A DNA stretch of 64,000 nucleotides from Candidatus Omnitrophota bacterium (GTDB taxonomy: Bacteria > Omnitrophota > Omnitrophia > Omnitrophales > Aquincolibacteriaceae). A program made the translations under genes and the position numbers. The notes under the pieces were generated by a model. The model worked only from the letters and a program-made list of their open reading frames with translations. It searched no databases and was not told the DNA's origin. The stretch is from NCBI GenBank assembly GCA_043808175.1, contig JAZDFE010000040.1, positions 1,410 through 65,409 of the forward strand. Direction: 5' to 3'. Positions 1 to 25,311 of the stretch are shown here, in pieces (the stretch's first letter is position 1; each line of letters begins with the position of its first letter).

Positions 1-3000
1 GTTAGAATTCAAATCCAATTCGCCCGCGTTTACAGTCGTAAGTCCGGTGTAGGGGTTGTCGCCGCTTAAAATAAGAGTGCCCGCGCCGGTCTTGGTGAGC
101 GAGCTCCCGGCGTTGTTGTTGATCGGGATGAGGATCGTTAATTCATCATATGCGCCATCCGTGCGGATCACCAATTCAGCGCCGGCCGAGGCCTGAATGC
201 CCGCGCCTAGTTCGAAGCTGCTGATCTGGGCTCCTTCTGAATTGCCTGTTTTGAGAATGCCATCGACAGTAACAATCTGGTTCTCGGCGAGAAAAAAATC
301 ACTATTGCCGCTAATGTTGAGGGTAGTAAAAGTGGCCGTGGCCTGGGCAGTAATATCGCCTGTGATCTGCTGATGCGCGACGCCGGCAAGAGTGTCCGTC
401 GTGCCGCTGGATGTAGCTCCCGTGTCGTTGCTATAGTCTATGGTGCGGACATAACCGCCGGCGTCATTCCACGCGTAGGCGCTGCCGCCGAAGAAAATAC
501 CTTTATTAATGAAGCCGGCGCCAGCGCCGGTGAGCACTATTTTGTTGTTGGATGTCCCGCCGCTACCGATAATCCCGCCATAAACGTCAAAGTTCCCCGT
601 CGCACCCGCCACGCGCGCGGCCAGCGACGAAAAGGTCAGCGTGACGTTGTATGGCGCTCTGAGGATCGTCTGCACAGTACCATCCCCTGCGCTAAAAGTC
701 AGAGCTCCTAGGCTTTGGCTTCTGTCGCCACCGGAACCCGTGTTGTCGTAGGTGAATGTGCCCGTGCCGCCAAATGTCAGCGCCGAGGCGGCATTTAAAC
801 TGCCGGTAGTGGCGGCTATTTTCAACGAGCCGCCATCGACAATCGTTGTGCCCGCGTAGGTGTTGACGCCGGAGAGTGTCACTATGCCGCTGGTGGTCTT
901 CATCAGGCCATTGTCCGCAGCGTCGTCGTTTAAGATCGCGGAAACAGCGCCGGATTGCATGTCGAAGGCATTTGTGGTGGTCAATATACCGGTGGTGCCG
1001 CTGATCGTGCCTCCGGTTAGTTGCACGTTTGTTACGGCTTCATTAAATCCTTGGATGCTAAATGTGCCGCCGCTGACAGCAACGCTCGCGGTATCGGCAA
1101 TCTGGTTTGCTTGCAGTAGTTTTACTGTACCGCCCGAGATCGTCAAATCACCATTGATCGCGGTACCGGCAGAATTCAAATCCAATTCGCCCGCGTTTAC
1201 GGTGGTCTCGCCTGTGTAGGTATTGGCGCCGCTTAAGATAAGAGTGCCCGCGCCGGACTTGGTCAGCCCGTTCGTGCCGTTTACGAGAATCGGCGTGCTG
1301 ATCGTCAATGCATCATTTGCGCCATCCGTACGGATCACAAAGTCCCAATCGTTCGCCGCCTGAATGCCTGTGCCGCCGCTGATCGTCGCTCCGCCGGCGG
1401 TGTTGCCTGTTTTGAGAATGCCGTTGACCGTAACGGTCTGACCTCCTGCGAGCTCAAAATTATTGTTGCCGCTAATGTTGAGGGTAGTGAAAGTGGCTGT
1501 GTTCTGGCCGGCGATGGCGCCTGTGATCTGCTGATGCGTGGCGCTGCCAAGAGTACCGCCGCCGGCGTTGGTTACAGCTCCCGCGTCGGTGCCGTAAACG
1601 ATGCCTCGGACATAGCTGGCGGCATCGTACCATGCGTAGGCACTGCCTCCGAAGAATATGGCCGGATCAATGAAGCCGGCCGTAAAGCCGGTGAGAACAA
1701 TTTTGTTGGTTGCGTTAGTCCCGCCGGAAATGATAAAGTTCCCCGTCACACCATCCGAGCCGCCCAGCGAAGCAAAGGTCAGGGTGGTAGTCCCTGAACC
1801 GCCGTAAGTAGATTGCACAGTCGCATCGCCGCCGTCCACGATCAGAGCGCCCATGCTCTGGGAAGAGCCGGCCGCTTCATTAAAATTGACCGTGCCGCCG
1901 CTGCCTAGAAATGTCAGCGCCGTACCTGTGGTACCATTAAGGCTGCCCGTTGTTCCATCGCCAATTTGCAATGTGCCGCCGGTTACTGCGGTCTCGCCGG
2001 TGTAAGTGTTCACGCCGGTGAGCTGTAGCGTTCCCGCGCCGGCCTTGACCAAGCCGACTCCTGCAGCACCACTAATGATGCCGCCGATGGTCAGCGTATT
2101 GGCCTCGACAGTCACTGTCCGGGTGGCAGCGCCAAGCGCCACCGTGCCCGTGCCAACATTGAAATTATTAGTACCCGTGAAGGTGAAGTCGTTGTTTATG
2201 ACAACATTGTTGTTTCGCGTGTTTGTGCCGCCACCGAGGGGGACGTCGAACGTGATGAGGTCGCCCGGTGAGCCTCCGAGGGTAAACGTACCCCAGCCGA
2301 GGGCATCTACGGCGCAGAGATTCAGCGTGCCCATGATGAGAGACACACCGCCAGTGAACGTGTTCACGCCGCCTAATTGAAGAGTGCCTGCGCCCTCCTT
2401 TTCCAAACCGTAGTTATTACCACCATCGCTAATGGTACCGGTGGTGGACAGCACGCTTCCGTCTACGGTAACCATGACTGCCCCATCACCCCACAATGTC
2501 ATGCCGCCAGCCCCGAGATCGAGATCGTCGACACTCGTATAAGTGAAATCACCTTTCGCATCGATCGCGTTGCCATTATCCAGCGTTATGAGGCCACCGC
2601 TTGTGTTACCGAGCGTCTTGACGTAGTCCGTGACTCCGAGAACATCGCCGATGGTGAAAGTACCGGCCGCACCGCCCAGCGCTGTATTGCTGTTGATGTT
2701 CAGCGTGCCCTCCTGGAAAATCGTCCCGCCGGTGTAGGTGTTGTTGCCGGAGAGAGTCCACGTGCCGCATTCTAGCTTGATCACAGACAGGTTGCCGCCG
2801 GCTCCTCCGTTACCGATGATGCCGGAGATCTCGTTATTACCTGTGCTGGTACCCTCGAGCCAAAGCGTCGTGGTGTTCCCACCCGTGGATACGCCTGTCA
2901 CGCCACCACCGATTTTTAGAAGGCTGACAGCTGACCCGTAGGCATCGAAGTAAGCATTGCCGCCGACGCCCTGAATCTCAATCGCCGAATCGATCGTGTC

Positions 3001-3342
3001 GGTATGAGCGCCATTTCCCGCGTTGGTGCTGATCCAACCGTCATCTTCCAAGAGCAGGTTGCCGCCGGTGAGCGTGTATCCGGCAGGTTCTGGGTTATTG
3101 AATAAGATACCGAAGATGCTCCGATTGTCATCGACCGTGACAGTACGATTAACATGGGCCATGAGCCACCGGTCAAAGTTCGCGGTGCCGCCGGTGCCAG
3201 GGATAAGTCCGCCGGCCCAATCTGCTGGGACAATCCAGGAGCCATCAGCATCCGCATTCCACGAACCATCGACCGCGAACGCGGGAGTGACGGGTGAGAA
3301 AACGAGGGAAAGAATCGCGACGACGGCCAGGAATTTTTTCAT
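1..3342 (-). CDS. Large secreted adhesin-like protein with autotransporter-associated beta-strand (PATR-type) repeats; only the 5' part is in the window (3' end runs off the left edge)
   Basis: Hand translation of the minus strand from ATG 3342..3340 gives MKKFLAVVAILSLVFSPVTPAFA (Sec-type signal peptide), then Gly/Thr/Asn-rich repeats such as GTWTLSGNNTYTGGTIFQEGTLNINS. No minus-strand ORF starting at 3342 is listed in the track, which is consistent with no stop before base 1 (3342 is a multiple of 3). The plus-strand ORFs 373..3361 are short, low-complexity shadows. Confidence 0.75.
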   Translation of the reverse strand, partial: MKKFLAVVAILSLVFSPVTPAFAVDGSWNADADGSWIVPADWAGGLIPGTGGTANFDRWLMAHVNRTVTVDDNRSIFGILFNNPEPAGYTLTGGNLLLEDDGWISTNAGNGAHTDTIDSAIEIQGVGGNAYFDAYGSAVSLLKIGGGVTGVSTGGNTTTLWLEGTSTGNNEISGIIGNGGAGGNLSVIKLECGTWTLSGNNTYTGGTIFQEGTLNINSNTALGGAAGTFTIGDVLGVTDYVKTLGNTSGGLITLDNGNAIDAKGDFTYTSVDDLDLGAGGMTLWGDGAVMVTVDGSVLSTTGTISDGGNNYGLEKEGAGTLQLGGVNTFTGGVSLIMGTLNLCAVDALGWGTFTLGGSPGDLITFDVPLGGGTNTRNNNVVINNDFTFTGTNNFNVGTGTVALGAATRTVTVEANTLTIGGIISGAAGVGLVKAGAGTLQLTGVNTYTGETAVTGGTLQIGDGTTGSLNGTTGTALTFLGSGGTVNFNEAAGSSQSMGALIVDGGDATVQSTYGGSGTTTLTFASLGGSDGVTGNFIISGGTNATNKIVLTGFTAGFIDPAIFFGGSAYAWYDAASYVRGIVYGTDAGAVTNAGGGTLGSATHQQITGAIAGQNTATFTTLNISGNNNFELAGGQTVTVNGILKTGNTAGGATISGGTGIQAANDWDFVIRTDGANDALTISTPILVNGTNGLTKSGAGTLILSGANTYTGETTVNAGELDLNSAGTAINGDLTISGGTVKLLQANQIADTASVAVSGGTFSIQGFNEAVTNVQLTGGTISGTTGILTTTNAFDMQSGAVSAILNDDAADNGLMKTTSGIVTLSGVNTYAGTTIVDGGSLKIAATTGSLNAASALTFGGTGTFTYDNTGSGGDRSQSLGALTFSAGDGTVQTILRAPYNVTLTFSSLAARVAGATGNFDVYGGIIGSGGTSNNKIVLTGAGAGFINKGIFFGGSAYAWNDAGGYVRTIDYSNDTGATSSGTTDTLAGVAHQQITGDITAQATATFTTLNISGNSDFFLAENQIVTVDGILKTGNSEGAQISSFELGAGIQASAGAELVIRTDGAYDELTILIPINNNAGSSLTKTGAGTLILSGDNPYTGLTTVNAGELDLNSN
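4..2337. repeat. In-frame tandem duplication (period 1167 bp = 389 codons) inside the PATR adhesin gene
   Basis: agaattcaaatccaattcgcccgcgtttac occurs at 4 and again at 1171. The following ~600-700 nt of each unit align with roughly 80% identity by eye (compare shadow ORFs 207..389 and 1335..1550). The distal part of each unit is more diverged. Confidence 0.7.
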
Positions 3343-3522
3343 AGGGGGGGGAGCTCCGTGAATTTTTGGATAAAAAAGGCCTGAAGCTTTTTTCAAAATG
3401 GGGTTCATCCTGATTTCTATTTTGTTGTTCCCGCTCAAGACAGAATCGAGATAACGCGCTAGAAAGAATACAAAGCCATCGGACTTCTATATATGTACGG
3501 CAAGCAGCGCATAACCCTAAGC

Positions 3523-3597
3523 GTCCTGGTTCTCAATTAAACGGTTAACCAGGACAGTCCAAACTTTTCACTTCTTTTCCAAAATGGTAGTTTGGAC
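3523..3597. repeat. Double-hairpin intergenic element, copy A (related to 14756..14836)
   Basis: gtcctggtt (3523-3531) pairs with aaccaggac (3547-3555). It is immediately followed by gtccaaac (3557-3564) pairing with gtttggac (3590-3597). The core GTCCTGGTTCTCA...GTTAACCAGRACAGTCC is shared with the reverse complement of 14791-14836. Confidence 0.5.
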
Positions 3598-3768
3598 AGC
3601 TCCAGTCGTCATTCAAGAAAAGAAAGACTTGGAGGAAGTGTATACCCATCCCCGGGATGACACAACTTTTTTATTCCTTTACCCTTCCCCACCCCCTAAA
3701 ACCATCGCGGGTTTGACCCAGACGGATCAAACCCGCGACAATAAAAGTTCGTTTCAGAATACGCGCGG

Positions 3769-4149
3769 TCAAATGCTCTCCGCCGGTTTCGAAACGCTTG
3801 TTCCCGTCTCCAGGCCCAGGCTGCGCGCACGCTCTCCCTGGATATACTGGGACATCACTCTGACGTTTTGGGACAGGCTGGTCTTCTGCTCGTCGGTAAG
3901 CTTGTCTTTCGGACCTGGAAGCTGGATCTGGCTGACGGGGAAAAGAAGCGCGGCTTCATTGCTCGGCACCAGCACGTCGATCCGGCCGTTCACGCTGTTC
4001 AGACGGTAAAGAACGCCTTCATAGCCATAAAGTGAATACATTTCCGGCGAGACCGACTTTCCGGTATTTTCCATCCCGGCCTTGATGAAAAATGAAGAAA
4101 CGATCAAAGCGACGGCAATGACCGCCGCAATAATAATGTTGCCTTTCAT
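3769..4149 (-). CDS. Hypothetical small membrane-anchored protein
   Basis: 126-aa ORF with an N-terminal hydrophobic helix (IIIAAVIAVALIVSSFFI) and AAGGAG 8 nt upstream of the ATG. I recognise no family. Confidence 0.6.
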   Translation of the reverse strand: MKGNIIIAAVIAVALIVSSFFIKAGMENTGKSVSPEMYSLYGYEGVLYRLNSVNGRIDVLVPSNEAALLFPVSQIQLPGPKDKLTDEQKTSLSQNVRVMSQYIQGERARSLGLETGTSVSKPAESI

Positions 4150-4742
4150 GGGGGTGACTCCTTTTTGTTTTGTTGAGTTGAAATGGGTTAAAGTTCTTTT
4201 AAAACCGACAAATCCAGCGTGTTTCTATAAAAAAACGAGGCAAGAAGTGTGCGGCCTTAAGGAACAGGATTCTATACCAGCCGCACAGCAACATGCAACT
4301 GCTTTCATCACTCCCTCCGTGTCTCATACTCACTAACGCTGCGCAATTCAGCCCCCGAAGCGGCCACTGCCTGCCTAACGAAAGGATGCTATTTTCGGTT
4401 CGAGATTACCGCTCTATCGGAAGGCATAACTATTCTTTCTGCTACCTCTTTTTAGGAGGATCGAACCCGTAAGCATGTATACTGCTCCCCGTTTAGTTAA
4501 GGCCCAAATAGTGTAGACGTCCATCAAAGGATGTGGAGGAACACAACTTCCCCACGGAACGTAGGCTACGGAGGCTTGCGGTGATGGATGGGGCTGAGCA
4601 GCAGGCGGAGTTTAATCGGCTTCGGCAGGAGTCGAAACCTGAAACGAGGTTGGTTGAGTAAGCCGTTGATAATTCGCCCTACCCCCTACAGCACTACATC
4701 TTTGCTGCTAGCGTTTCCCATTAACCGTTTCCCGATTTTTTA

Positions 4743-5978
4743 TTAGAAATCGTAACGAACAGACCCGTAATAGGTGTTCGACATGAACTGATCCTTCAGC
4801 TCCATATCCCAGTTCCCTGTCACGGTCATGTTCCCTTTGTTCAGAAATGCAAGCTCGCCGCCAAAAAGCATCCCGTTCTTCGCGGGTTTCGCTCCCCTGG
4901 TCGTAAAAACACCCCCGCCGCCGGCAAAAGAGGCCGTTGTCTCGAAACGATCCCCCAGGTAGTCATAGAGCCAGGCCGCTTTGACCGAAGGGATGAAAGT
5001 CCCGGCTTTCTCAGACACCATTGGATACACGAGCTTCATCCCAAGAGACTGCTCAAGTTGATGGAATCCTTCGCCGTCCACATTGAGATTGAGCGCGTTC
5101 GCGCCCTTTTCCTTGTAGCTGTTCATGTACAGGTAGTTGTAACCGATCGATGCGAAGGGCGTCACTTCCAACTCTTTCGTTTCCTCGAGCGTGAGCGTAT
5201 AACCCGCCTCAAAGTTTGTGGAATACTGCTGGCCATAATGATCGGCTTTCGCGACACGCTTGTTCGCCGGAGTAAGCCAGCTCTCACGCCGACTGTCGAA
5301 ATTATTCTGCGTGAAGGAGAACATCCCGTCCACATACCAGGAATCCTCGACCTGACTGCGTACAGCCTCGTAGGACTTCTTCCCGCCCTGACGCGCTTTG
5401 TTGAGATCCAGAGAATCGTAACTCCCGTAAATCGTCCCCTGGTAGCTATTGATATCATCGGAGGGACTACCCGGCGTTTTTGATTTCACACCTGCCCAAC
5501 CATAACCGCCGGCAAGACCCATGCGCCAATGGTTATCGAGCATCTTATCCACGCCGATCGTGGTTCCCCAAGTGTTCGCCTTGTAACCTTCGATCCCCTT
5601 GCACGTATCCTGTTCGATATGACTTCCGAGACCCTGCATCCAGACCCCTACGCCATTCGTCATATCCCCGCTTGAAACGCCCGAAGGAGCCGAGCCGTTC
5701 CTCGCACCGCCTAACCGGTTGCTGATCATCGTGAACGAATTCTCCGTCAGCGCACGGCTTACATCTGCCACTCCCGAACTCACATCCGGCACCATCGTAT
5801 CCAGCGCATTTCCAAGATCCTCTGAAGAAAGACCGTCCAGCGTATTCAACGCATACAGCATATCCCCCGTCGCACCGGCCGCACCCGCCGGTGGGCAAAA
5901 GACAAAAGACTTTTCTTTTGCGGTGAACGGATGTATCATTTTATCCACTATGCACCCAACCACGAAAGATAATGTCAT
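4743..5978 (-). CDS. Autotransporter outer-membrane beta-barrel domain protein, 5'-truncated (no signal peptide, no passenger); possibly a gene fragment
   Basis: The C-terminus ...NTYYGSVRYDF ends in an aromatic residue with alternating beta-strand patterns, as in autotransporter translocator domains. A linker-like region (LGNALDTMVPDVSSGVADVSRAL) precedes it. Family-like sequence begins only at about aa 29; the first ~28 codons are antisense to the recombinase upstream region. Confidence 0.6.
   Translation of the reverse strand: MTLSFVVGCIVDKMIHPFTAKEKSFVFCPPAGAAGATGDMLYALNTLDGLSSEDLGNALDTMVPDVSSGVADVSRALTENSFTMISNRLGGARNGSAPSGVSSGDMTNGVGVWMQGLGSHIEQDTCKGIEGYKANTWGTTIGVDKMLDNHWRMGLAGGYGWAGVKSKTPGSPSDDINSYQGTIYGSYDSLDLNKARQGGKKSYEAVRSQVEDSWYVDGMFSFTQNNFDSRRESWLTPANKRVAKADHYGQQYSTNFEAGYTLTLEETKELEVTPFASIGYNYLYMNSYKEKGANALNLNVDGEGFHQLEQSLGMKLVYPMVSEKAGTFIPSVKAAWLYDYLGDRFETTASFAGGGGVFTTRGAKPAKNGMLFGGELAFLNKGNMTVTGNWDMELKDQFMSNTYYGSVRYDF
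5895..5921. other. Imperfect 27-bp palindrome at the autotransporter-truncation / recombinase junction (candidate att-type site or operator)
   Basis: gcaaaagacaaaag-a-cttttcttttgc. The outer 8 bp are perfect (gcaaaaga at 5895-5902, tcttttgc at 5914-5921). It lies 29 bp upstream of the recombinase ATG, exactly where beta-barrel homology stops. Confidence 0.35.
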
Positions 5979-7821
5979 TAATTGTGCGATTTATACACGG
6001 GTCTCGGTGGACGAGCGGGCGGAAACGCAAACGTATTCCACGCTCGATAACCAGCGGGATAGTTGTACTGCCTACATCGAAAGTCAAAAATCCCTTGGAT
6101 GGAAGGTCTTCAAGGTCTATGAGGATGCCGGGCAGTCCGGGGGATCGCTCAATCGCCCTGCCCTGAAGCAGCTTATCGAAGATATCAAGCGGAAGCGCAT
6201 CCAAACTGTGATGGTCTACAAGATCGACCGCCTCACCCGCAACCACAAAGATTTTTATTCCCTTCTTGAAGTTTTCAATGAACATGACGTCAAATTCGTT
6301 TCCACTACCCAGCATTTCGACACGGCCTCTCCGGCAGGGCGGCTCCTTCTTCACGTCATGCTGGAATTTGCCCAATTCGAACGGGAAATGTCACAGGAGC
6401 GGACTTACGACAAACGCTTTGCCATGGCCAAACGAGGCATGTGGTGCGGAGGATTTGTCCCTCTTGGATATATCGTGAAAAAAAAGAAACTTGTGATCCA
6501 TAAGGAAGAAGCCAAGATCGTGCAACTCTGCTTTGAGCTTTACCCCAAGCTGGCCTCCATGGGGAAGATCGCCGAAAAGCTCAACGAAATGGGCTATCGG
6601 ACCAAAAAATTCTACGTCCGAGGGAAAGATGCTGCCGGAAGCACAAAATTCGACAAGAAAAAGATCTCGAACATTCTGACGAATCATTTTTATATCGGGA
6701 AAGTCCGGTTCAAGGACAAGGACGGGAAACAATACATTTTCGACGGGGAGCAGAAGCCTATTATTACAGACAAAAAGCTTTGGGACAGCGTTCAGAACAT
6801 TTTGGTGAGTAACCGCGAGACCCACAAAACCTTCAAACAGAATAAATATGAAATGCTCTTCCTGGGTCTTGTGACATGCGGGCACTGCAGGAGCACCATG
6901 ACCAACTCTTCCAAGGAAAAAAAGGGCAAGATGTACCTTTATTACCGGTGCACCGCGGCGGTCATCAAGGACAAAAAGGCCTGCCCGGTCCGTACTGTTT
7001 CGGCGGATGAACTGGAAGACTTCCTCATTCAAAAATTCAAGGAACTCGGAGAAAATCCAACCCTTCTAGAAAAATCCATCGAGAAGGCCAATGGTATGGC
7101 TAAACAAGGCCTGGAACCTCTCAGACGGGACAAGGAACGCGCCGGATCACAGCTTGTAAAGATTGACCGGCAGTTAAAGCATTTGGTCGAATTTATCAAA
7201 ACGGGAGAATGTTCAGACAAGAAGAGATCGCGCGGGATCGTGAAGGAAATGTCCGATCTTGAAGACTCAAAAGAGAAACTGGAAGATGAGATCCACCGGA
7301 TCGATACCAACATGCAGCATTTGAGCCAGCATGTGATCGATGCGGATACCTTTGCGAGGCTCTTTAAGGAATTCCCGAAGGTCTTCGAGACGTTTTCTTT
7401 CGATGAGAAGAGGAATCTGATCTTGCTGCTTGTGAAGGAAGTGATCTATACGCCTACCAAACTGAGAGTTTTATTTTGGGGAGATATTCCTGAAATGGCT
7501 TTTAATCTGAAAAACCCGCCGGACTGGACCCCGCCGCCGGATGGCGGCGATACGCCCTACACTCCTAAAGGCTCCGATGGATCAAGTGTAGAAGCGCCCG
7601 TGCGAACCAGATACTTGGTTCGCACGGGCGTGTTGAATGGCTCCCCCGCCTGGGATCGAACCAGGGACACTGCGGTTAACAGCCGCATGCTCTACCAGCT
7701 GAGCTACAGGGGAATAACTTTTGAAAGAACAGCGATATTACTTTCGGAGGGGTTAATTATAAAGATTGCGGCCTTAGGGTCAATGGGTGTTTTTGGCCTT
7801 TGCTTTCCGCCTTCCAGCTGA
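5950..7821 (+). CDS. Large serine recombinase (resolvase/invertase N-domain + recombinase domain + zinc-ribbon)
   Basis: Starts at the internal ATG 5950 (MHPTTKDNVINCAIYTRVSVDE...). It has the catalytic Y-x-R-x-S motif, then DRLTRN, a recombinase domain, and the Cys cluster CGHC...CTAAVIKDKKAC. The listed ORF start 5719 is antisense to the beta-barrel gene. The 3' end is uncertain because the frame stays open through the tRNA on the other strand until 7821. Confidence 0.85.
   Translation: MHPTTKDNVINCAIYTRVSVDERAETQTYSTLDNQRDSCTAYIESQKSLGWKVFKVYEDAGQSGGSLNRPALKQLIEDIKRKRIQTVMVYKIDRLTRNHKDFYSLLEVFNEHDVKFVSTTQHFDTASPAGRLLLHVMLEFAQFEREMSQERTYDKRFAMAKRGMWCGGFVPLGYIVKKKKLVIHKEEAKIVQLCFELYPKLASMGKIAEKLNEMGYRTKKFYVRGKDAAGSTKFDKKKISNILTNHFYIGKVRFKDKDGKQYIFDGEQKPIITDKKLWDSVQNILVSNRETHKTFKQNKYEMLFLGLVTCGHCRSTMTNSSKEKKGKMYLYYRCTAAVIKDKKACPVRTVSADELEDFLIQKFKELGENPTLLEKSIEKANGMAKQGLEPLRRDKERAGSQLVKIDRQLKHLVEFIKTGECSDKKRSRGIVKEMSDLEDSKEKLEDEIHRIDTNMQHLSQHVIDADTFARLFKEFPKVFETFSFDEKRNLILLLVKEVIYTPTKLRVLFWGDIPEMAFNLKNPPDWTPPPDGGDTPYTPKGSDGSSVEAPVRTRYLVRTGVLNGSPAWDRTRDTAVNSRMLYQLSYRGITFERTAILLSEGLIIKIAALGSMGVFGLCFPPSS
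7595..7630. other. Perfect 14-bp stem / 8-nt loop hairpin between the recombinase domain end and the tRNA-Asn 3' end
   Basis: cgcccgtgcgaacc (7595-7608) + agatactt + ggttcgcacgggcg (7617-7630). There is no clear U-tract on either strand, so it could be a tRNA terminator or a recombination-site element. Confidence 0.4.
7638..7713 (-). tRNA. tRNA-Asn (anticodon GTT), CCA encoded
   Basis: The reverse complement reads TCCCCTG TA GCTC AGCTGGTA GAGC A TGCGG CTGTTAA CCGCA GTGTC CCTGG TTCGATC CCAGG CGGGGGA G CCA. This is a complete 76-nt cloverleaf with anticodon loop CT-GTT-AA. Confidence 0.9.
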
Positions 7822-8707: not shown

Positions 8708-9400
8708 CTATTTCACCGCCATGAATTTCATTTTACTTTCCCCGCAAAGAGGGCAGGCCTGGAAATTGGCTTTCTCCACCACATTCCCGCAGAAGGGACA
8801 AACATAAAAGTCTTTATTCTTGCCCTTCCATCCCCTTAGATTTTCAAGGGCATTTTTGTACAGATTCGCATGGACAGCTTCCGCCTTCCCGGCATCCTCA
8901 AAAGCATCGCTCGCGGATTTGATACCATCCTTTTCTGCTTTGGTCAAAAATCCAGGATACATGACCGTGCTTTCATAGATCTCGCCATCCATCGCGGCTT
9001 TAAGATTTTCCGCGGTGCTCTTTACGATCGGCGTTTCGATCGTGGCCGCAGGAACACCTTCGAGCTCTTTGATCGCTTTGGCATGACGTTCAAAATGGAC
9101 TTGCTCGGCACGGGCGGCGGCCCTGAAAAGACTCGCGGCTTTGCCGTACCCTTCCGCATCCGACTTTTGCGCGAACGCGAGATAGCGTGCATTGGCGTTG
9201 CTCTCGCCATTAAATGCGGTCTGAAGATTGTCGAGCGTGGTCTTTTCAACTGCCGCCTGAGGCGCAGAAGGCGCTCCCGGGATTGTCGCCGTGGCCGTCT
9301 GAACGGTTTCCGCAGTTTTCATTTCTTCGGCATAAGCGCAAAATGCACCGGCCCAAAAAAAGAAAGCAGCAACGATAAGAATCTTCTGAAGGTTCTTCAT
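8708..9400 (-). CDS. Rubrerythrin with an N-terminal signal-peptide-like extension
   Basis: Ferritin-like diiron motifs (ESNANARYLAFA, EQVHFERH, EAVHANLY) plus a C-terminal rubredoxin-type CPFCG...CPLCG. The N-terminus is MKNLQKILIVAAFFFWAGAFCAYA. Confidence 0.85.
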   Translation of the reverse strand: MKNLQKILIVAAFFFWAGAFCAYAEEMKTAETVQTATATIPGAPSAPQAAVEKTTLDNLQTAFNGESNANARYLAFAQKSDAEGYGKAASLFRAAARAEQVHFERHAKAIKELEGVPAATIETPIVKSTAENLKAAMDGEIYESTVMYPGFLTKAEKDGIKSASDAFEDAGKAEAVHANLYKNALENLRGWKGKNKDFYVCPFCGNVVEKANFQACPLCGESKMKFMAVK

Positions 9401-10686: not shown

Positions 10687-10766
10687 GCTTGACGGGTTTA
10701 AAACTGGCACGAGTCTTGCATTCTTTGAGGTGAATTGAGGTATAATAAAAATTTTGAAGGACCTTT

Positions 10767-11237
10767 ATGCCAATGATCACAGATAGGATCATCCGCCTTC
10801 TCGAAAAACGGGAATTCGTCTCGGTTGCGACGGCGACCCCAGACGGACAGCCGAATACTGCCCCGAAGTTCTTCTTCCGTGCCAAAGGGAATTTCATATA
10901 TCTCATCGATTACGTCCTCGGGAAGACGGTAACGAACCTTAAAGAAAATCCAAAGGTCTCGGTCTCTTTCATGGATACGGACAGTCTTGAAGCTTACCGC
11001 CTGAATGGCACGGCAAAACTGATCGAAAAAGGAAGGGTTTTTGAGAACGTCTTCAAGGAATGGGACAAAAAGCTGGTCAAAATGACTACGGACCGGGTGA
11101 TCGATGCCGTCAGGACCGGGAAAAAGCACAATCACTACGAATTGGAAATGACAGAAAAATTCATGGTCCTCAAGATCAAGATCGAAAGCATCGTCAAGAT
11201 CGGCCGCCGTGGAGACATCTGGAAAGAAACAGGCTAA
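10767..11237 (+). CDS. Pyridoxamine 5'-phosphate oxidase family (FMN-binding split barrel) protein
   Basis: [23 protein letters not shown]...[14 protein letters not shown] is typical of PNPOx-like proteins. Confidence 0.7.
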
Positions 11238-11389
11238 GCTTCTTTAACTGCGGGTATCTTATCCAGAGCGAGGAAAATTCCGTGGAGAATGGCTTCCGGC
11301 CTCGGGGGGCATCCGGGGATATAAACATCCACGGGAATGGAGTGGTCTACGCCTCCGACAATCGCATATCCGTTGCTTTGCCGCACAAC
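11234..11389 (-). pseudogene. Remnant of a NuoB / [NiFe]-hydrogenase small-subunit-family gene (C-terminal 51 codons + stop only)
   Basis: The minus-strand frame reads [51 protein letters not shown]. It contains the hallmark [16 protein letters not shown]-terminal motif of NuoB-type subunits. It has no upstream coding sequence or start codon and is wedged between the arsR stop and the convergent PNPOx gene. Confidence 0.6.
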
Positions 11390-11391
11390 CT

Positions 11392-11727
11392 TTAGTCCTC
11401 GCCGAGACTTTCCAAAATCTTCTCACTTCTTTTTAATTTTTTCCGGAGAAGTTCGGCGATCGGCCTCAATACTTTAAAAATATCATGATCCTGCAAGCTG
11501 TAATAAACATTCGTCTTTTCCTGGCGAGCTGACAAAACCCCGAGATCCCGCAAGGTAGCCAAATGACGCGACAAACTGGACTGTTCGATCCCCAAAGTCT
11601 GAACGAGCTTTCCCACGCTGGCTTCTCTGTTCTTGAGATATTCAATAACCTGAAGACGGGCGGGATGCGCCAAGGCTTTTAAAAAATCCGCTTTGATCTT
11701 GAATACCATATCATCTATTTTTTTCAT
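11392..11727 (-). CDS. ArsR/SmtB family transcriptional regulator
   Basis: [16 protein letters not shown]...[28 protein letters not shown] winged-HTH signature. Confidence 0.85.
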
Positions 11728-11995
11728 AACCCTTTCTGCGCAGCGATTTCGTTAACCTGAGGATATTTTCAAATAACTCTTTTGCCAAACACGACGATCT
11801 TTTTCTCATTAATACCATTTTGAAACTTTTCAGATCAAAAAAAGTCTATTTCATTATACTATTTTCAACAAAAGCAACTGACACAAAATACATCATGGGC
11901 ACCAGGATCGGAGTATTCTAATTCCATGCTCCTGAACCGCGTCAAAACTTACGCCGTTCTTATCAGCTTCGCTTAATTTACAATCTCAGTCAGCT

Positions 11996-12292
11996 TTATT
12001 TTACTTCCAAAACGGTATTCTTAGAACCAAACTGATTGGTTACGGTCTTCTTAGCGCGAGGGTCATCGATCCACTGCCCATCCACAAAAAACCGGTATTC
12101 ATACCTGCCCGGCTTCAGTTGAATCGATCCTTTCCAAATCCCCCGGTAATCTTTTGTCAAACGACCGGCATTTGTGCGCCATTCATTAAAGGTGCCGCAC
12201 ACGTTGACGCTTTTAGCCTGCGGTGCGGACAATTGAAATTCCACTGCTTGTTCACCCATACTCGGTTTAATTTTTGACATTACGATACTCAT
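11996..12292 (-). CDS. Stand-alone glycogen-binding (CBM48 / AMPK-beta GBD-like) domain protein
   Basis: VEFQLSAPQAKSVNVCGTFNEWR...WKGSIQLKPGRYEYRFFVDGQWIDDP matches the E-set/CBM48 pattern. Confidence 0.7.
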   Translation of the reverse strand: MSIVMSKIKPSMGEQAVEFQLSAPQAKSVNVCGTFNEWRTNAGRLTKDYRGIWKGSIQLKPGRYEYRFFVDGQWIDDPRAKKTVTNQFGSKNTVLEVK

Positions 12293-12346
12293 TTCACACC
12301 TCCCCGTTTTAAAAGCCCCAGCGCAAAATTGCGCTTTTCTGCCGAC

Positions 12347-12832
12347 TCATTCTTTATTTCCCGCTAAAACCGTAATCCGTGCTTCCTGTTCGCTAATTAT
12401 TTTGATCACTTGTCTAGGTGTCGCAGCTCTTCGGATTAACCCTGTTACAAAGTCATCACGAAGAAGCCTTGCTAAGCCGGCAAGGACGATCAAATGAACC
12501 CCCACAGGATTCTGGGGATAGACCATGAGAAAGAAAACATGGACCAGCTCCCCGTCAAGCGCATGAAAATCAACGCCCTTTTTCGATACAGCTAAAAGAC
12601 CTTGAGGCTTGGGGATTGCTTCTGATTTCGCGTGGGGTATTGCAATCCCATTTCCAAGCCCCGTGGATCCTAATTCTTCGCGCTGCATTAGAGAAGAAAA
12701 CAGGCATTTAGGATCCACGCTGGGATGAATCTCATGGAACTTTTCCGCCAGTTTACGAAGCGTCTCCTTTTTGTTTTTGGCTTCAAATTGCAAAAGGACC
12801 GATGAAGAACTGATCAATTCCGAAATTTTCAT
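12347..12832 (-). CDS. ptsN: PTS EIIA-Ntr-like (PtsN family) regulatory protein
   Basis: REELGSTGLGNGIAIPHAK active-site region; ~160 aa. Confidence 0.8.
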   Translation of the reverse strand: MKISELISSSSVLLQFEAKNKKETLRKLAEKFHEIHPSVDPKCLFSSLMQREELGSTGLGNGIAIPHAKSEAIPKPQGLLAVSKKGVDFHALDGELVHVFFLMVYPQNPVGVHLIVLAGLARLLRDDFVTGLIRRAATPRQVIKIISEQEARITVLAGNKE

Positions 12833-12875
12833 ATCTGCCTTTGGGCCTCTGGTTGTGTTTTTCCGCCTCTTTTTC

Positions 12876-13655
12876 TTATTTCACCACCATGACGGGACAG
12901 TTCGCCTCTTCCGCCATCGCGTGAGAAAAAAGGCGAAATCGATGGTCCCTCCAATCTTCCAATTCATTTGCGCCAAGTATTAAAAGATCGGATTTCCCGG
13001 CATCACATTCTGCAAGAAGAGTCTGTTTAACATCACCATGCAAGATCTTGTAATCCACTTTTATTTTCCACCTCTCGAGCAAGTATTGCGCCTGGGACTG
13101 AGCCGCTCTGAGGGAGAGCGATGTGCCCGTTCCGATCGCAATAATTCTAACGTGAGCCTGTCCGTACTTACTCAACATTGCTGTCATCCCAAGAGCCCGG
13201 TCGCTGAATCTCCCGTTGACATGCGCTAAAAGAATTTCTTTAAAATCCCGGTTGAAAGTTTTCGGCACAATAAGAACCGGACCCGGAACTTCCCGAAGCA
13301 CCCCTTTCAGATCAAACGAAGCATCGCCTTTAAGCAAAACCAAAAGCTCGCTGAGAGAAAACTCTTTTAATGCTTTTTGTAGTGAGTCCCCGAAAATGAC
13401 CGCGTCCCACGCGACCCCGCTTTGATCCGCCTGAGCCTCCAAATAGTTCCTATGAAATGCTTCCGTCTCTTCTGGCTTTATCGCGGGTATTCGAGGTTTC
13501 TCGGAAGCAAAACTCAAAGATTCGAGAAGCCGCACCCGGACTTTAAATATTCGGGCAATCCGCACTGCGGTTTTAAGGAGATGAGGAAACGAATCCTTCT
13601 CCGGAGCCAAAACTAACACGTCAGTGATCAATTTCTCCGTTGGATGCTTTTGCAT
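12876..13655 (-). CDS. Universal stress protein family (tandem USP domains)
   Basis: Two USP-like halves, each ending in a ...PVLIVP / CPVMVVK type motif. Confidence 0.65.
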   Translation of the reverse strand: MQKHPTEKLITDVLVLAPEKDSFPHLLKTAVRIARIFKVRVRLLESLSFASEKPRIPAIKPEETEAFHRNYLEAQADQSGVAWDAVIFGDSLQKALKEFSLSELLVLLKGDASFDLKGVLREVPGPVLIVPKTFNRDFKEILLAHVNGRFSDRALGMTAMLSKYGQAHVRIIAIGTGTSLSLRAAQSQAQYLLERWKIKVDYKILHGDVKQTLLAECDAGKSDLLILGANELEDWRDHRFRLFSHAMAEEANCPVMVVK

Positions 13656-13657
13656 TC

Positions 13658-14257
13658 TTAATCTTTATACATGAGGATGTCGCCCAGCCAGGGATGAACC
13701 ACAAGATGAGGCCTTAAATTCTTTCTGATAAGTGAGAACGCTTTCTTGACAGGAATCTTTAACACAATCGCTATTTCCTGGGCCAAGGCCTCGGCGGCAT
13801 GCTTTACAATCTTGCTTTCTCCCCGATCGCAATACAGTTGCTTTGACACTGCCATCAGAAGCACTTCAGCGAATGCTTGGGCTGTATTCCCCTGCGCGAC
13901 CGTTCGTAACTGAAAAGAATAATTTTCGTTGGGGAAGTTTTCTGGTTCTGTTTTTCCGCAACGGAATGAGACAAAAATGTTTTCTATCTCTTTTTCAGAA
14001 ATGGGCCGATGAAAACCGGATTGGATCGCTTGATAAACGCCCACAAAATATCTTGAGAGGTGTTTCCCGGGCCGGGCTGGCTCGATCCAATAACTCAGTC
14101 CTTCTAAACCGCTGGGTTTTCCTACGATTCCTTTAACCACACAAAGCCCATGAATAGAATGAAAAAGAACATCCCCCCTCTGAAACGGCAACCCCTGTGT
14201 AGCCGCTGCATGTTCTGTTCGTGCTTTCTCAGTTTTCCGGTCAGCCAAGTCGAGCAT
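13658..14257 (-). CDS. CarD/CdnL/TRCF-domain-like protein
   Basis: N-terminal FQRGDVLFHSIHGLCVVKGI resembles the CarD_TRCF RNAP-interacting domain. The rest is unassigned. Confidence 0.45.
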   Translation of the reverse strand: MLDLADRKTEKARTEHAAATQGLPFQRGDVLFHSIHGLCVVKGIVGKPSGLEGLSYWIEPARPGKHLSRYFVGVYQAIQSGFHRPISEKEIENIFVSFRCGKTEPENFPNENYSFQLRTVAQGNTAQAFAEVLLMAVSKQLYCDRGESKIVKHAAEALAQEIAIVLKIPVKKAFSLIRKNLRPHLVVHPWLGDILMYKD

Positions 14258-14755
14258 CTCGCGCCTCCTGATTTAACATGCATTGAAGCAGTCCGCTATC
14301 GACCTAAAAAACAAAACCTTTTAAAAAAACGGCCCGGATAACAGCCCCTAGGGTCCATGTTTTGAGCGTCACAAGCTCACGGAATATATAGCTATTTTCA
14401 TATATTCTTATATGAACATTTATGCATATTACAGCAAAAAAAGAGAGGTGTCAATATCATCCGATGACCTTTTCGAAACTGAACGGCATTGTCGTTGACA
14501 TTCACTCACCCAATAACCATGCCTGGCTTAAAAAGATTCTCGTCCCGTTGTCCCCACCGTTGCGAGAGAAAAAGGTCCGCCAACTTCTCTATCGTAGTGC
14601 AGCAACAGCCCTGCCATTGAAAATGCTCTTTCGGGTATGAATCACGTTAAGGGGATATTAGGGAAGGATAAACCGAGAAAAATAAAGGGACTTTGGAAAA
14701 TCAGGCGCCCAAGTCTTTATTTTCTTTTCATGAAAGGCGACTTGGACAGCACTGC

Positions 14756-14836
14756 CCTGATCTCTTGTTTCTTTTCCCCAAGGGTGATCAGGACTGTTCT
14801 GGTTAACTTTCAATTTTAAATTAATGAGAACCAGGA
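14756..14836. repeat. Double-hairpin intergenic element, copy B (related to 3523..3597)
   Basis: cctgatc (14756-62) pairs with gatcagg (14786-92). Next to it, gttctggtt (14795-803) pairs with aaccaggac (14828-36). Confidence 0.45.
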
Positions 14837-14866
14837 CTGATTTCCAGTTGAAAAAATTAATGACAA

Positions 14867-24118: not shown

Positions 24119-25311
24119 GCTGTTTTCCCGGCCACGGCGCCGCTGGCCCAGGCCCAGGCGAGATTGTAGCCGCCCCGCCGTCCCTGCACATCGAGTACTT
24201 CCCCGGCAAAATAAAGACCTTTTTGGAGCTTGGACTCCAGCGTCAGAGGATCCACTTCTTCCGCCGGGATCCCGCCCGCCGTGAATTCCGCTTCATTCCA
24301 GCCGCGTGTGCCGATTACTTTGAATTCTTTGTGCTTGAGTGATCTAGCGATCGCGGCAACGTCGGAACCTTGCAACATTCCGCGAAGGAGACCCGACACC
24401 TTATGAGGCAAGAGTCCCTCCGCAAGGCTCTCGCGGGCGATGCCTCTTGTCAATTTTCCGGACAACTCCGCGATTAGTTCTTTTTCGCCCATGAACGGAA
24501 TAAGATCTACAACCACGGAAACATTCGTCTCATGATCGCGGTTCAGGGCGACCGAGATCTCATCGCTCACATCCAGGACTGCCGTGCCGGAAAGTCCGTA
24601 CTGGGTAAATAAGAGTTCGCCGGAAGCCGTGCGAACTTCTTTCCCGCGAACGCGGCTTGTCACGGAGACCCGGAGCTTCTGTCCCTGGAGCGTGTGGCAC
24701 CACGGATCTTTCACGAGCAAGGGAACAGTGCTCGGTACCGGTTCAATGATCTTGTGCCCGAACATCGAGGCAAGCACGTAGCCGTTCCCATCCGCGCCCA
24801 GTGCGGGATAAGACTTCCCTCCGGCGCACAAGATGACTTTGCGGCCCGTTTCCCGCTCTCCGCTTCCCGCCGAGATCTCAAATCCATTTTTCGCGACACG
24901 AATGTTTTTTATTTCGCAGCCAAGATCGATCGTCACCTTAAGCCTCTCAAGCTCCATCTCAAGCACCTTGAGCGCCGAGGCCGCCTGGTTCGTCACCGGG
25001 AAGATCCGGCCCACTTCATCCGCGTAGGTCGCAAGGCCCAGCTCTTTGAAAAATCCGAGCACGGCTTCTTTTCCGAACTGGCCCAGGACCGAACGGACAA
25101 GCGTTTGGCTTCCCGGATTATAAAAAGAATCGTTGAGGATGTCGTTCGAGAGATTGCAACGGCCGGCACCCGTGATGAGCAGTTTTTTCCCGAGTTTCGT
25201 CATTTTTTCGCACACGAGGACCGACGCGCCCCGGCGCTTGACGGTGATCGCCGCCATCATTCCCGCCGCACCACCTCCGATGATGATCACATCATACTGA
25301 GCCATAGTCAC
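24115..25311 (-). CDS. NAD(P)/FAD-dependent oxidoreductase, HI0933/BaiN family
   Basis: YDVIIIGGGAAGMMAA dinucleotide fold and the C-terminal GRRGGYNLAWAWASG motif. Confidence 0.8.
   Translation of the reverse strand: MTMAQYDVIIIGGGAAGMMAAITVKRRGASVLVCEKMTKLGKKLLITGAGRCNLSNDILNDSFYNPGSQTLVRSVLGQFGKEAVLGFFKELGLATYADEVGRIFPVTNQAASALKVLEMELERLKVTIDLGCEIKNIRVAKNGFEISAGSGERETGRKVILCAGGKSYPALGADGNGYVLASMFGHKIIEPVPSTVPLLVKDPWCHTLQGQKLRVSVTSRVRGKEVRTASGELLFTQYGLSGTAVLDVSDEISVALNRDHETNVSVVVDLIPFMGEKELIAELSGKLTRGIARESLAEGLLPHKVSGLLRGMLQGSDVAAIARSLKHKEFKVIGTRGWNEAEFTAGGIPAEEVDPLTLESKLQKGLYFAGEVLDVQGRRGGYNLAWAWASGAVAGKTA

What the first reader, a model, noticed from the sequence alone, without database searches (positions are those of the whole stretch)
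4743..7821. Orphan 5'-truncated autotransporter beta-barrel ends exactly at a large serine recombinase gene next to tRNA-Asn: integration junction or DNA-rearrangement switch
The minus-strand ORF 4743-5978 encodes only the linker and beta-barrel of an autotransporter, with no signal peptide and no passenger. Family-like sequence stops at about nt 5890. There lies a 27-bp imperfect palindrome (gcaaaagacaaaag-a-cttttcttttgc, 5895-5921). Twenty-nine bp further on, a large serine recombinase gene starts on the opposite strand (ATG 5950). The recombinase's 3' end abuts the 3' end of tRNA-Asn (7638). To the left are adhesin-type genes, including a PATR passenger-type gene that runs off the window. 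To the right is pure housekeeping. Two readings are possible. (a) This is the recombinase-proximal end of an island integrated beside or into tRNA-Asn, and it has truncated or carries an autotransporter fragment. (b) It is a recombinase-driven inversion/cassette system that couples alternative passenger regions to a silent beta-barrel cassette.
Basis: partly seen in the sequence, partly recalled or inferred. Interest (0 to 1): 0.65.

Follow-up and report, generated by a model that had tools for sequence, protein, structure and literature searches.

The report
Stranded integrase beside a truncated autotransporter
A mobile island once inserted at the end of a tRNA-Asn gene in this Omnitrophota genome; a later deletion removed everything except its integrase gene, along with the front two-thirds of the neighbouring adhesin gene, so this is a genomic scar and not a DNA switch.

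Summary
ORF 4743-5978(-) is only the linker and beta-barrel of an autotransporter. Homology to full-length relatives stops at about nt 5888. A complete large serine recombinase (LSR) gene starts at 5950 and converges on tRNA-Asn (7638-7713).

A close relative (L174/L175) has the empty site: hemN-rbr-gpmA-tRNA-Asn, about 400 nt, then a full-length autotransporter orthologous to the window's barrel, and no LSR.

All six close LSR relatives with genomic context abut the 3' end of a tRNA-Asn or tRNA-Gln gene. Each has variable cargo upstream and housekeeping genes beyond the tRNA. The element supplies the tRNA's CCA and a hairpin, so the crossover lies at the tRNA's extreme 3' end.

In the window only 59 bp of LSR upstream sequence survive. 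The neighbouring HTH_17 gene, the cargo, the distal att site and about 5.7 kb of chromosome are gone.

Best reading: this is an integrase-only remnant of a tRNA-Asn island plus an adjacent deletion. The inversion/cassette reading is not supported.

Two points add interest. LSRs that target tRNA genes are barely documented. This family's ORF has no stop codon of its own and runs antisense into the tRNA.

The parts
4516..4742 (-). 3' flank of the autotransporter gene, chromosomal
   Evidence: DNA homology window 4516-5882 = L174 1375-2731 (76.6%) continues past the stop codon.
4743..5890 (-). Autotransporter remnant: alpha-helical linker plus complete beta-barrel. It is orthologous to the 3' third of the full-length gene that lies next to tRNA-Asn in L174. 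The mechanical ORF continues to 5978 into unrelated sequence.
   Evidence: Pfam PF03797, E 1e-52. 79% aa identity to the L174 barrel. Homology ends at about 5876-5890. Full-length relatives are listed.
5889..5894 (.). Deletion breakpoint between chromosomal autotransporter DNA and element DNA
   Evidence: Alignment with L174, L002 and L001 loses homology here. The junction is identical in L008.
5891..5949 (+). The only retained LSR upstream sequence (59 bp). It holds the imperfect palindrome 5895-5921, whose right arm CTTTTCTTTT is a family-conserved polypyrimidine motif, and a -10-like TTTTAT at 5939-5944, 5 nt before the ATG. This suggests a leaderless transcript (inferred).
   Evidence: Upstream regions of 8 family members were compared. 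In L009 and L089 a divergent HTH_17 gene follows about 110 nt upstream; it is absent here.
5950..7637 (+). Element-encoded large serine recombinase, 562 codons, with no stop codon of its own
   Evidence: Pfam Resolvase / Recombinase / Zn_ribbon_recom. Invariant Y15 R17 S19 D93 R94 R97 and C310 C313 C334 C345. PDB matches to TP901-1, SPbeta SprA/YokA and A118 integrases. dN/dS 0.069 against L008.
7594..7631 (.). Element-borne 16-bp hairpin inside the LSR 3' coding region. Its right arm carries GGTTCG (7617-7622), the mirror image of the tRNA T-arm CGAACC (7657-7662).
   Evidence: dG -21.9, z -8.5. Conserved in the window, L008, L009, L089 and L180, and absent from the empty site L174. RGTTYG lies 12-15 nt before the tRNA end in 16/19 LSR-adjacent flanks against 2/41 controls.
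7638..7647 (.). Inferred recombination junction (attR core). TGG (= CCA) is supplied by the element. The crossover lies within about 7641-7647, at the discriminator / acceptor-stem end.
   Evidence: The empty-site tRNA ends ...GGGGGAGT with no CCA. All LSR-occupied tRNA-Asn genes end ...GGGGGAGCCA. tRNA bodies are host-specific while the element side is conserved.
7638..7713 (-). tRNA-Asn(GUU), intact, the target gene of the element
   Evidence: ARAGORN. Promoter-like TTGACC-16-TATAAT at 7783-7756.
7638..7821 (+). Read-through tail of the LSR frame (61 codons antisense to the tRNA and its promoter). It is context-dependent and not conserved.
   Evidence: Tails of homologues all look like antisense tRNA and vary in length. 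The L008 frame stops in an intron.
1..4149 (-). Context: the 5' part of a separate PATR-type autotransporter gene (start about 3414, runs off the window) and a 126-aa ORF (3769-4149). Both are syntenic with L002 and are not part of the element.

Best explanation
This is the integrase-only remnant of a genomic island that integrated at the extreme 3' end of tRNA-Asn, followed by a deletion.

1. Ancestral state: hemN-rbr-gpmA-tRNA-Asn, about 400 nt, then a full-length type Va autotransporter on the minus strand. This state is shown by a relative.
2. An island carrying a large serine integrase at its edge recombined with the tRNA's 3' terminus. The element's arm supplies CCA and a hairpin. The integrase ORF has no stop of its own and runs across the junction. 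This is shown as a family trait; the chemistry is inferred.
3. A later deletion ran from 59 bp upstream of the integrase ATG to the linker of the autotransporter. It removed the divergent HTH_17 gene (the likely excision factor), all cargo, the distal att site, the native tRNA flank and the promoter, signal peptide and passenger of the autotransporter (about 5.7 kb of chromosome). The deletion is inferred from the comparison; its mechanism is unknown.

The result has three parts. The LSR gene is intact and possibly still expressed, but it has lost its partner site and its directionality factor, so it cannot excise anything. tRNA-Asn remains functional. The beta-barrel fragment has no export signal and is most likely a pseudogene.

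The same junction occurs in a second, diverged genome (L008). It lies inside a roughly 600-bp tract of 97-99% identity, which suggests the deletion allele was spread or homogenised by homologous recombination.
For: Empty site:
- L174/L175/L176/L177 (gpmA 92% identical) have tRNA-Asn with a native 3' flank, then a 2020-aa PATR passenger plus a barrel that is 79% identical to the window's. DNA homology covers window 4516-5882, and there is no LSR.

Family behaviour:
- 6 of 6 close homologues with context abut tRNA-Asn (L009, L089) or tRNA-Gln (L010, L011, L090, L091).
- Upstream cargo varies: type I R-M; Czc/RND efflux; SNF2/RmuC/OLD/methyltransferase defence genes. The tRNA side is conserved housekeeping.
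- The C-terminal tails of about 20 homologues look like antisense tRNA.

Junction:
- Occupied tRNA-Asn genes end in CCA plus a conserved hairpin; the empty one does not.

Loss of the island body:
- HTH_17 lies next to the LSR in L009 and L089 but is absent here; only 59 bp are kept.
- No other part of the L174 autotransporter or of the native tRNA flank is found anywhere in the window.
- There is no second site.

The LSR is complete.

The same locus is an integration hot spot: L172/L173 carry a different LSR (31% identity) island at the same tRNA-Asn.

A decaying copy exists elsewhere: L181 is cut to 482 aa.
Against: - The sequence to the left of the window is unknown, so a distal island end further left cannot be formally excluded.
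- The LSR shows strong purifying selection against L008 (dS 0.61, dN/dS 0.069) even though both genomes share the junction. That is unexpected for a long-stranded gene. The high-identity tract offers a way out, namely a young junction allele moved by recombination, but this is inferred.
- The barrel fragment's few substitutions are mostly synonymous (16 synonymous, 4 non-synonymous). This could mean it is still functional, or that it is being converted from functional paralogues.
- RIFOXYB12 has two paralogous autotransporters (85% identical barrels). The window's left flank matches the other one (L002), so at least one further rearrangement separates the genomes.
- The L174 autotransporter is followed by ParB-HTH and zeta-toxin genes, which are themselves typical of mobile elements.
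Confidence: 0.74

Rival explanations
1. The island is intact and extends to the left beyond the window. The truncated barrel, the 126-aa ORF and the PATR adhesin gene are its cargo (a literal version of the first reader's reading a).
For: - The LSR is intact and under purifying selection.
- The left end of the window is open.
- Adhesins are common island cargo.
- In L174 the autotransporter is followed by ParB-HTH and zeta-toxin genes.
Against: - In L174 the orthologous autotransporter starts 400 nt from a tRNA-Asn that has its native CCA-less 3' flank and no integrase. It therefore sits outside any LSR-type junction.
- The HTH_17 gene that neighbours the LSR in intact relatives is missing, and autotransporter homology begins only 59 bp from the ATG.
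- L002 shows the barrel / 126-aa ORF / PATR block next to TPR and glycosyltransferase genes with no recombinase.
Confidence: 0.1
2. The LSR has been domesticated or is retained for a host function after losing its island. Examples would be blocking the tRNA-Asn site against related islands, or acting in trans on integrase-less elements. The barrel-only ORF might also be a functional protein.
For: - dN/dS is 0.069 over dS 0.61 with the same junction in two genomes. Catalytic and zinc residues are intact. The promoter-like region is retained and 98% conserved.
- Barrel substitutions are mostly synonymous.
Against: - The 97-99% identity tract around the junction implies that the junction is much younger than the LSR divergence. 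Most of the selection signal may therefore date from when the islands were intact.
- The barrel ORF has no signal peptide and starts inside the LSR gene on the other strand.
- The related copy in L181 is already truncated.
- The L008 contig ends inside the barrel, so a paralogue chimera is possible.
Confidence: 0.1
3. A recombinase-driven inversion or cassette switch joins alternative passenger regions to a silent barrel cassette.
For: - A palindrome lies at the junction.
- Adhesin genes are nearby.
- Serine recombinases can invert DNA (established knowledge).
Against: - There is no inverted or direct second copy of the junction or palindrome in 64 kb.
- The right arm of the palindrome is a conserved promoter-region motif of the LSR family in unrelated contexts.
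- The family consists of tRNA-end integrases with variable cargo.
- The nearby PATR gene is a separate gene transcribed away from the barrel.
- The empty-site relative explains the truncation as a deletion.
Confidence: 0.03

Closest known systems
Large serine integrases of phages and integrative elements (TP901-1 Int, SPbeta SprA/YokA, Listeria A118 Int)
   Same: The same three-domain architecture, catalytic Ser/Arg/Asp residues and four-Cys zinc ribbon. Sequence matches to solved structures: 3bvp E 5e-27; 9dxh aligned over residues 59-506; 4kis. The gene sits at the edge of the element next to the att junction.
   Different: - The target is the 3' terminus of a tRNA gene instead of a protein-coding gene or intergenic site.
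- The ORF lacks its own stop codon and crosses the att junction.
- In this window the partner site, the cargo and the candidate RDF are missing.
Large serine integrase ('S-Int') islands in t(m)RNA genes predicted by TIGER (Mageeney et al. 2020, PMC7192596)
   Same: A large serine integrase island using a tRNA gene. That paper counted 14 of 297 S-Int islands at t(m)RNA genes. It stated that such use 'has not been reported previously' and needs experimental proof.
   Different: Here a coherent Omnitrophota clade (67-93% identity) uses tRNA-Asn or tRNA-Gln, and more distant metagenomic LSRs use Gln, Asn, Lys, His and Ser. The junction is mapped to the CCA/discriminator and there is a T-arm-mirroring RGTTYG motif. 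Whether these belong to the same clades as the TIGER cases was not tested.
Classical tRNA-gene genomic islands and prophages with tyrosine integrases (P4-like; Islander database)
   Same: The integrase gene is adjacent to the tRNA 3' end, the element restores the tRNA gene, cargo is variable, and islands are present or absent among relatives.
   Different: The recombinase family and mechanism differ. The crossover is at the very end of the tRNA, so almost no tRNA sequence is duplicated and no tRNA-fragment direct repeat is detectable.
phiRSM filamentous phage integrase (small serine recombinase integrating at a tRNA-Ser gene; Askora et al. 2011, cited in PMC7192596; the target gene is recalled from my own knowledge)
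   Same: A serine-family recombinase using a tRNA gene 3' end as attB.
   Different: phiRSM uses a small 'S-Core' resolvase-like protein without the recombinase, zinc-ribbon or coiled-coil domains.
'Grounded' or degenerate prophages and islands (for example the review PMC6379469, seen only as title and abstract)
   Same: An integrated element reduced by deletion, leaving an integrase gene and a damaged neighbouring host gene.
   Different: The remnant here is extremely small (one gene plus 59 bp), and the same scar is shared by two diverged genomes.
SSV1-type archaeal integrases and the integration-dependent immunity systems of mycobacteriophages (own knowledge, not tested here)
   Same: attP lies inside a coding region, so integration changes the encoded protein's C-terminus.
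   Different: Those systems use tyrosine recombinases or a repressor gene. Here only the disordered tail of a serine integrase changes, and no regulatory consequence has been shown.

Membership tests
Large serine recombinase (serine integrase) | N-terminal resolvase-type catalytic domain with the nucleophilic Ser and conserved Arg/Asp residues | tested here: met
   PF00239, E 2e-37. Y15 R17 S19 D93 R94 R97 are invariant in 16 family members. TP901-1 catalytic domain match E 5e-27.
Large serine recombinase (serine integrase) | C-terminal recombinase domain plus zinc ribbon (four Cys) with an inserted coiled-coil region | tested here: met
   PF07508 and PF13408. C310/C313/C334/C345 are invariant. 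Alignment to SPbeta SprA covers residues 59-506. The coiled coil itself was not modelled.
Large serine recombinase (serine integrase) | A pair of hybrid sites (attL and attR) flanking the element | tested here: not met
   One junction (attR-like, 7617-7662) is present and matches the family. No second site is found in the window. The element body is deleted.
Large serine recombinase (serine integrase) | An accompanying recombination directionality factor | tested here: not met
   The HTH_17 gene found divergently next to the LSR in L009 and L089 is absent from the window. Its role as RDF is itself only inferred.
Large serine recombinase (serine integrase) | Catalysis of attP x attB recombination | not testable with these tools
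   Requires an in vitro or in vivo assay.
tRNA-integrated genomic island | Integrase gene adjacent to the 3' end of a tRNA gene, which stays intact because the element supplies the displaced 3' end | tested here: met
   tRNA-Asn is intact. CCA and the hairpin are present only in occupied sites.
tRNA-integrated genomic island | Presence/absence polymorphism at the same locus in related genomes | tested here: met
   L174-L177 are empty. L172/L173 are occupied by another LSR island. The window and L008 carry this LSR.
tRNA-integrated genomic island | A block of foreign cargo genes between the integrase and a distal repeat of the tRNA 3' end | tested here: not met
   Chromosomal autotransporter DNA starts 59 bp upstream of the LSR. 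No tRNA-fragment repeat is found. Relatives do carry cargo.
Type Va (classical) autotransporter | C-terminal 12-stranded beta-barrel translocator domain | tested here: met
   PF03797 over profile positions 1-254 of 255, E 1e-52.
Type Va (classical) autotransporter | N-terminal Sec signal peptide and a secreted passenger domain on the same polypeptide | tested here: not met
   The ORF begins MTLSFVVGCIVDKMIHPF... inside the LSR gene. It has no positively charged n-region and no passenger. Relatives carry about 700-1950 aa upstream of the aligned barrel region. The four with an unambiguous start have signal-peptide-like N-termini. No signal-peptide predictor was available.
Site-specific inversion or shufflon-type phase-variation switch | Two or more recombination sites in inverted orientation bracketing alternative gene segments | tested here: not met
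   No repeat of the junction or palindrome on either strand in 64 kb.
Site-specific inversion or shufflon-type phase-variation switch | A recombinase of an invertase clade associated with the variable gene in relatives | tested here: not met
   The closest relatives are island-edge integrases at tRNA genes with unrelated neighbours. Full-length orthologues of the autotransporter have no recombinase nearby.

The most novel reading that the evidence does not exclude
The LSR belongs to a largely undescribed clade of large serine integrases that use the universal tRNA T-arm / acceptor end as one half-site. The element's own arm mirrors it with RGTTYG. The genes in this clade deliberately lack a stop codon, so the integrase C-terminus differs between the integrated and excised states. 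In the integrated state the frame runs through a hairpin and antisense tRNA, which could yield a non-stop or extended product. This would give integration-state-dependent control of integrase level. In this genome the stranded copy would be kept by selection, for example to occupy or guard the tRNA-Asn site.
Probability: 0.15. Interest if true: 0.65.

Novelty: new member of a known kind. Interest (0 to 1): 0.38.

Why it matters
For this locus, the analysis turns an apparent orphan barrel and possible DNA switch into an ordinary island scar. The barrel ORF should be annotated as a pseudogene fragment and the recombinase as a stranded integrase.

More broadly, large serine integrases are prized genome-engineering tools, and they are thought to avoid tRNA genes. 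Here a coherent set of natural LSRs has junctions mapped to the CCA end of tRNA-Asn or tRNA-Gln. An empty attB and several intact islands are available in relatives. This set makes the 2020 computational hint that S-Ints can use tRNA genes directly testable. It also offers attB sites that are conserved across many hosts.

Tried and rejected
- Exact-sequence look-ups of the barrel ORF, the LSR and gpmA found nothing, so the source genome is not in the collection.
- A scan of viral contigs with the LSR family alignment gave no relative above 36% identity, so no free attP form could be recovered.
- The metagenome scan gave only three close relatives.
- Searches for a second copy of the junction or palindrome, or for a tRNA-Asn fragment in the window, gave only chance matches of 13 nt or less.
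- Searches for tRNA-fragment repeats within 10 kb upstream of the LSR in six relatives found none. That is expected if the crossover is at the tRNA's last bases.
- A generic palindrome score around the tRNA 3' ends did not separate LSR-adjacent from other tRNAs (8.6 against 8.0). Only the specific RGTTYG motif did.
- I considered the barrel ORF's N-terminus (VVGC) as a lipoprotein signal. I rejected this from memory of the lipobox rule: the Cys is at position 9 and there is no basic n-region.
- I considered that the LSR alone is a minimal mobile element bounded by the palindrome and the tRNA. I rejected this because family members share no conserved boundary about 60 bp upstream and carry diverse cargo there.
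- I considered an inversion as the cause of the junction. I rejected this because both flanks keep their ancestral orientation.


Full report
**Observation**

The window comes from a member of Candidatus Omnitrophota; all close relatives of its genes are Omnitrophota MAGs.

- ORF 4743-5978 on the minus strand encodes 411 aa. Residues 112-390 match the whole Pfam autotransporter beta-domain (E 1e-52).
- The plus-strand frame that starts at ATG 5950 encodes a complete large serine recombinase (LSR), with Resolvase, Recombinase and Zn_ribbon_recom domains.
- The LSR's catalytic residues (Y15, R17, S19, D93, R94, R97) and zinc ligands (C310, C313, C334, C345) are invariant in a 16-member family alignment.
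- The LSR gives sequence matches to the solved TP901-1, SPbeta SprA/YokA and A118 integrases.
- tRNA-Asn(GTT) lies at 7638-7713 on the minus strand.
- The imperfect palindrome at 5895-5921 is real. It is the only one of its quality in the window, with none in ten shuffles.
It reads through a strong hairpin (7594-7631; dG -21.9, z -8.5) and then antisense through the whole tRNA to 7821.

**The barrel is a truncated gene**

Six relatives of the barrel (61-78% identity) are all full-length autotransporters of about 1100-2300 aa, with long passengers. The four with an unambiguous start show signal-peptide-like N-termini. Protein and DNA alignments lose homology at window nt about 5876-5890. The first 30-odd codons of the mechanical ORF are therefore unrelated sequence, and they overlap the LSR start on the other strand.

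**What the recombinase family does**

A protein search found about 29 proteins at 67-93% identity over the full length. Their C-terminal tails all look like antisense translations of a tRNA acceptor/T-arm, for example ...NGSPAWDRTRD...LYQLSYRG and ...SNGWETWIRTKIA.

All six members for which DNA context could be fetched have a converging tRNA gene in which the LSR frame ends. The tRNA is Asn in L009 and L089, and Gln in L010, L011, L090 and L091.

Genes beyond the tRNA are housekeeping. L090 and L091 share the same set (HIT, GltX, NAD kinase, DXS). Genes upstream of the LSR differ in every case:
- an HTH_17 gene plus a type I restriction-modification system in L009;
- an HTH_17 gene in L089;
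- Czc/RND efflux genes in L090;
- SNF2, RmuC, primase-like, OLD and methyltransferase defence genes in L091.

This is the signature of genomic islands integrated at tRNA 3' ends, with the integrase at the island edge. Eleven more distant metagenomic LSRs (33-42% identity) show the same convergent overlap with Gln, Asn, Lys, His or Ser tRNAs. That makes 17 of 163 LSR loci in total.

**Empty site and junction**

A search with the window's gpmA protein led to contigs of a close relative, Omnitrophica RIFOXYB12_FULL_50_7 (L174-L177; gpmA 92% identical). Its gene order is hemN-rbr-gpmA-tRNA-Asn. About 400 nt further on lies a full-length autotransporter on the minus strand. This consists of a 2020-aa PATR passenger plus a barrel, split by one frameshift. 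There is no recombinase.

The window's barrel is 79% identical to that barrel. DNA homology runs from window 4516, which is 227 nt beyond the stop codon, to 5882. Nothing else from the 5.7 kb between that point and the tRNA in L174 is present in the window.

The empty-site tRNA ends ...GGGGGAGT and is followed by its own hairpin. All occupied tRNA-Asn genes end ...GGGGGAGCCA. This includes L172, which carries a different LSR (31% identity) and has a tRNA body identical to L174's.

In the window, L008, L009 and L089 the sequence to the left of TGG (the hairpin plus gtgttgaa) is conserved, while the tRNA bodies are host-specific. The crossover therefore lies at the discriminator / acceptor-stem end, at about 7641-7647. 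The element supplies the CCA.

The element arm carries GGTTCG 15 nt from the tRNA end, mirroring the T-arm CGAACC. An RGTTYG motif lies 12-15 nt from the tRNA end in 16 of 19 LSR-adjacent flanks, against 2 of 41 control tRNA flanks (Fisher p about 1e-9). The sequences are not phylogenetically independent.

**What happened at the left side**

In L009 and L089, the closest relatives with context, a divergent HTH_17 gene lies next to the LSR; in L089 it starts about 110 nt upstream. It is excisionase-like and is a candidate directionality factor.

The window retains only 59 bp upstream of the ATG. These contain two family-conserved features: a polypyrimidine motif, which is the right arm of the palindrome, and a -10-like box 5-6 nt before the ATG. 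The latter suggests a leaderless transcript (inferred). Autotransporter DNA begins immediately to the left.

The simplest history is integration at tRNA-Asn followed by one deletion. The deletion removed the HTH_17 gene, the cargo, the distal att site, the native tRNA flank and the 5' two-thirds of the autotransporter. Both flanks keep their ancestral orientation, which fits a deletion and not an inversion. The mechanism of the deletion is unknown.

**Age and selection**

L008 is a second genome (LSR 93% and gpmA 93% aa identity). It has the identical junction.

| Region (window vs L008) | dS | dN/dS |
|---|---|---|
| LSR | 0.61 | 0.069 |
| gpmA | 0.55 | 0.066 |
| Autotransporter-derived fragment | 0.135 | 0.069 (16 synonymous, 4 non-synonymous changes) |

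Nucleotide identity is 97-99% over about 5428-6027, spanning the junction. It is 71-95% in the rest of the LSR.

I read this as a recent recombination tract that carried or homogenised the deletion allele. On that reading, most of the purifying-selection signal in the LSR predates the stranding. A retained function for the LSR or the barrel cannot be excluded. A related LSR copy in another lineage (L181) is already truncated.

**Rejected reading**

Three things would be expected of an inversion or cassette switch that couples passengers to the barrel, and none is found:
- repeated sites;
- an association between the recombinase and autotransporters in relatives;
- a suitably oriented partner gene.

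**Comparison with what is known**

The protein is a typical large serine integrase. Its target is unusual. Mageeney et al. 2020 (PMC7192596) state that S-Ints were not known to target tRNA genes. They found 14 of 297 computational cases and called for experimental proof. Mycobacterial surveys likewise assign tRNA attB sites to tyrosine integrases. The main text of Durrant et al. 2022 does not mention tRNA at all. A small serine recombinase, that of phiRSM, is the known precedent for a serine-family integrase (cited); that its attB is a tRNA-Ser gene is recalled from my own knowledge.

The locus itself is an ordinary island scar. The family it belongs to is a modestly novel, testable example of tRNA-targeting serine integrases whose ORF crosses the att site.

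**Verdict**

- Reading (a) is partly right and reading (b) is not supported.
- Best explanation: an integrase-only remnant of a tRNA-Asn island plus an adjacent deletion (confidence about 0.74).
- Interest is about 0.38.

Noticed in passing
L008 8017-8296 (+ in locus orientation) and L008 7737-7985: In the close relative L008 the tRNA-Asn gene is interrupted in the anticodon loop by a group I intron (Rfam RF00028, 62.8 bits, E 3e-15). A free-standing GIY-YIG ORF (Pfam E 4e-15) lies just beyond the tRNA's 5' end. The window's tRNA-Asn has no intron. ARAGORN therefore missed the tRNA in L008. The LSR tails of P0007 and P0012 (...VITI*, ...PVTI*) hint at similar interruptions in other relatives.
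   Followed up: partly
L172 7282-8935 and L173 1193-2846: A different large serine recombinase (539 aa, 31% identical) with its own island occupies the same gpmA-proximal tRNA-Asn in another close relative (gpmA 93%). The island carries a small resolvase, HTH_17, HTH_3, TPR and HNH genes. Its stop codon also falls inside the tRNA. This tRNA is an integration hot spot for more than one LSR lineage.
   Followed up: partly
L180 1036-2817 and L181 1053-2501: LSR copies 89-90% identical to the window's sit next to an IS256-type transposase, near serS-gyrA-gyrB-dnaN-dnaA. They are not followed by a tRNA: the sequence diverges right after gtgttgaaTGGCTCC. The L181 copy is cut to 482 aa. This could be a secondary-site insertion or an IS-mediated rearrangement.
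   Followed up: partly
window 5428-6027 versus L008: A roughly 600-bp tract of 97-99% identity spans the deletion junction, the LSR promoter region and the first codons of the LSR. It is flanked by sequence of 71-95% identity. This is either a recombination tract or a DNA-level constraint.
   Followed up: partly
window 7638-7713 versus L174 8423-8497: The window's tRNA-Asn differs from that of close relatives (L174, L172) at about a dozen positions. These include compensatory changes in the T-stem and anticodon stem. gpmA next door is 92-93% identical at the protein level.
   Followed up: no
window 45847-60933 (-): A 5028-aa ORF whose only clear Pfam hits are a starch-synthase-type glycosyltransferase (Glyco_transf_5 / GT1) in the middle, at about residues 1374-1791. 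The rest has no family match.
   Followed up: partly
window 4710-4740, 40653-40688, 40716-40739, 24847-24870, 39701-39724: A repeated motif (AGCGTTTCCCATTAACCGTTTCCCGA and variants, in direct and inverted copies). One copy lies immediately downstream of the barrel's stop codon. Its function is unknown.
   Followed up: no
window 8708-9400 and about 10700-14840 versus L008: The rubrerythrin gene and a roughly 4-kb block are present in the window but absent from the otherwise collinear L008 contig.
   Followed up: no
L174 1588-8020 and L002 4172-11128: The RIFOXYB12 MAG has two paralogous PATR autotransporters whose barrels are 85% identical. The one beside tRNA-Asn carries a frameshift in the barrel and is followed by ParB-HTH and zeta-toxin genes. 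The window's left flank (126-aa ORF, PATR gene) matches the neighbourhood of the other paralogue.
   Followed up: partly
L091 11775-11791 and 11899-11915: A 17-nt direct repeat of the 5' end of tRNA-Gln lies on the chromosomal side of the tRNA, inside the long read-through tail of the LSR ORF. It may be a trace of an earlier event.
   Followed up: no
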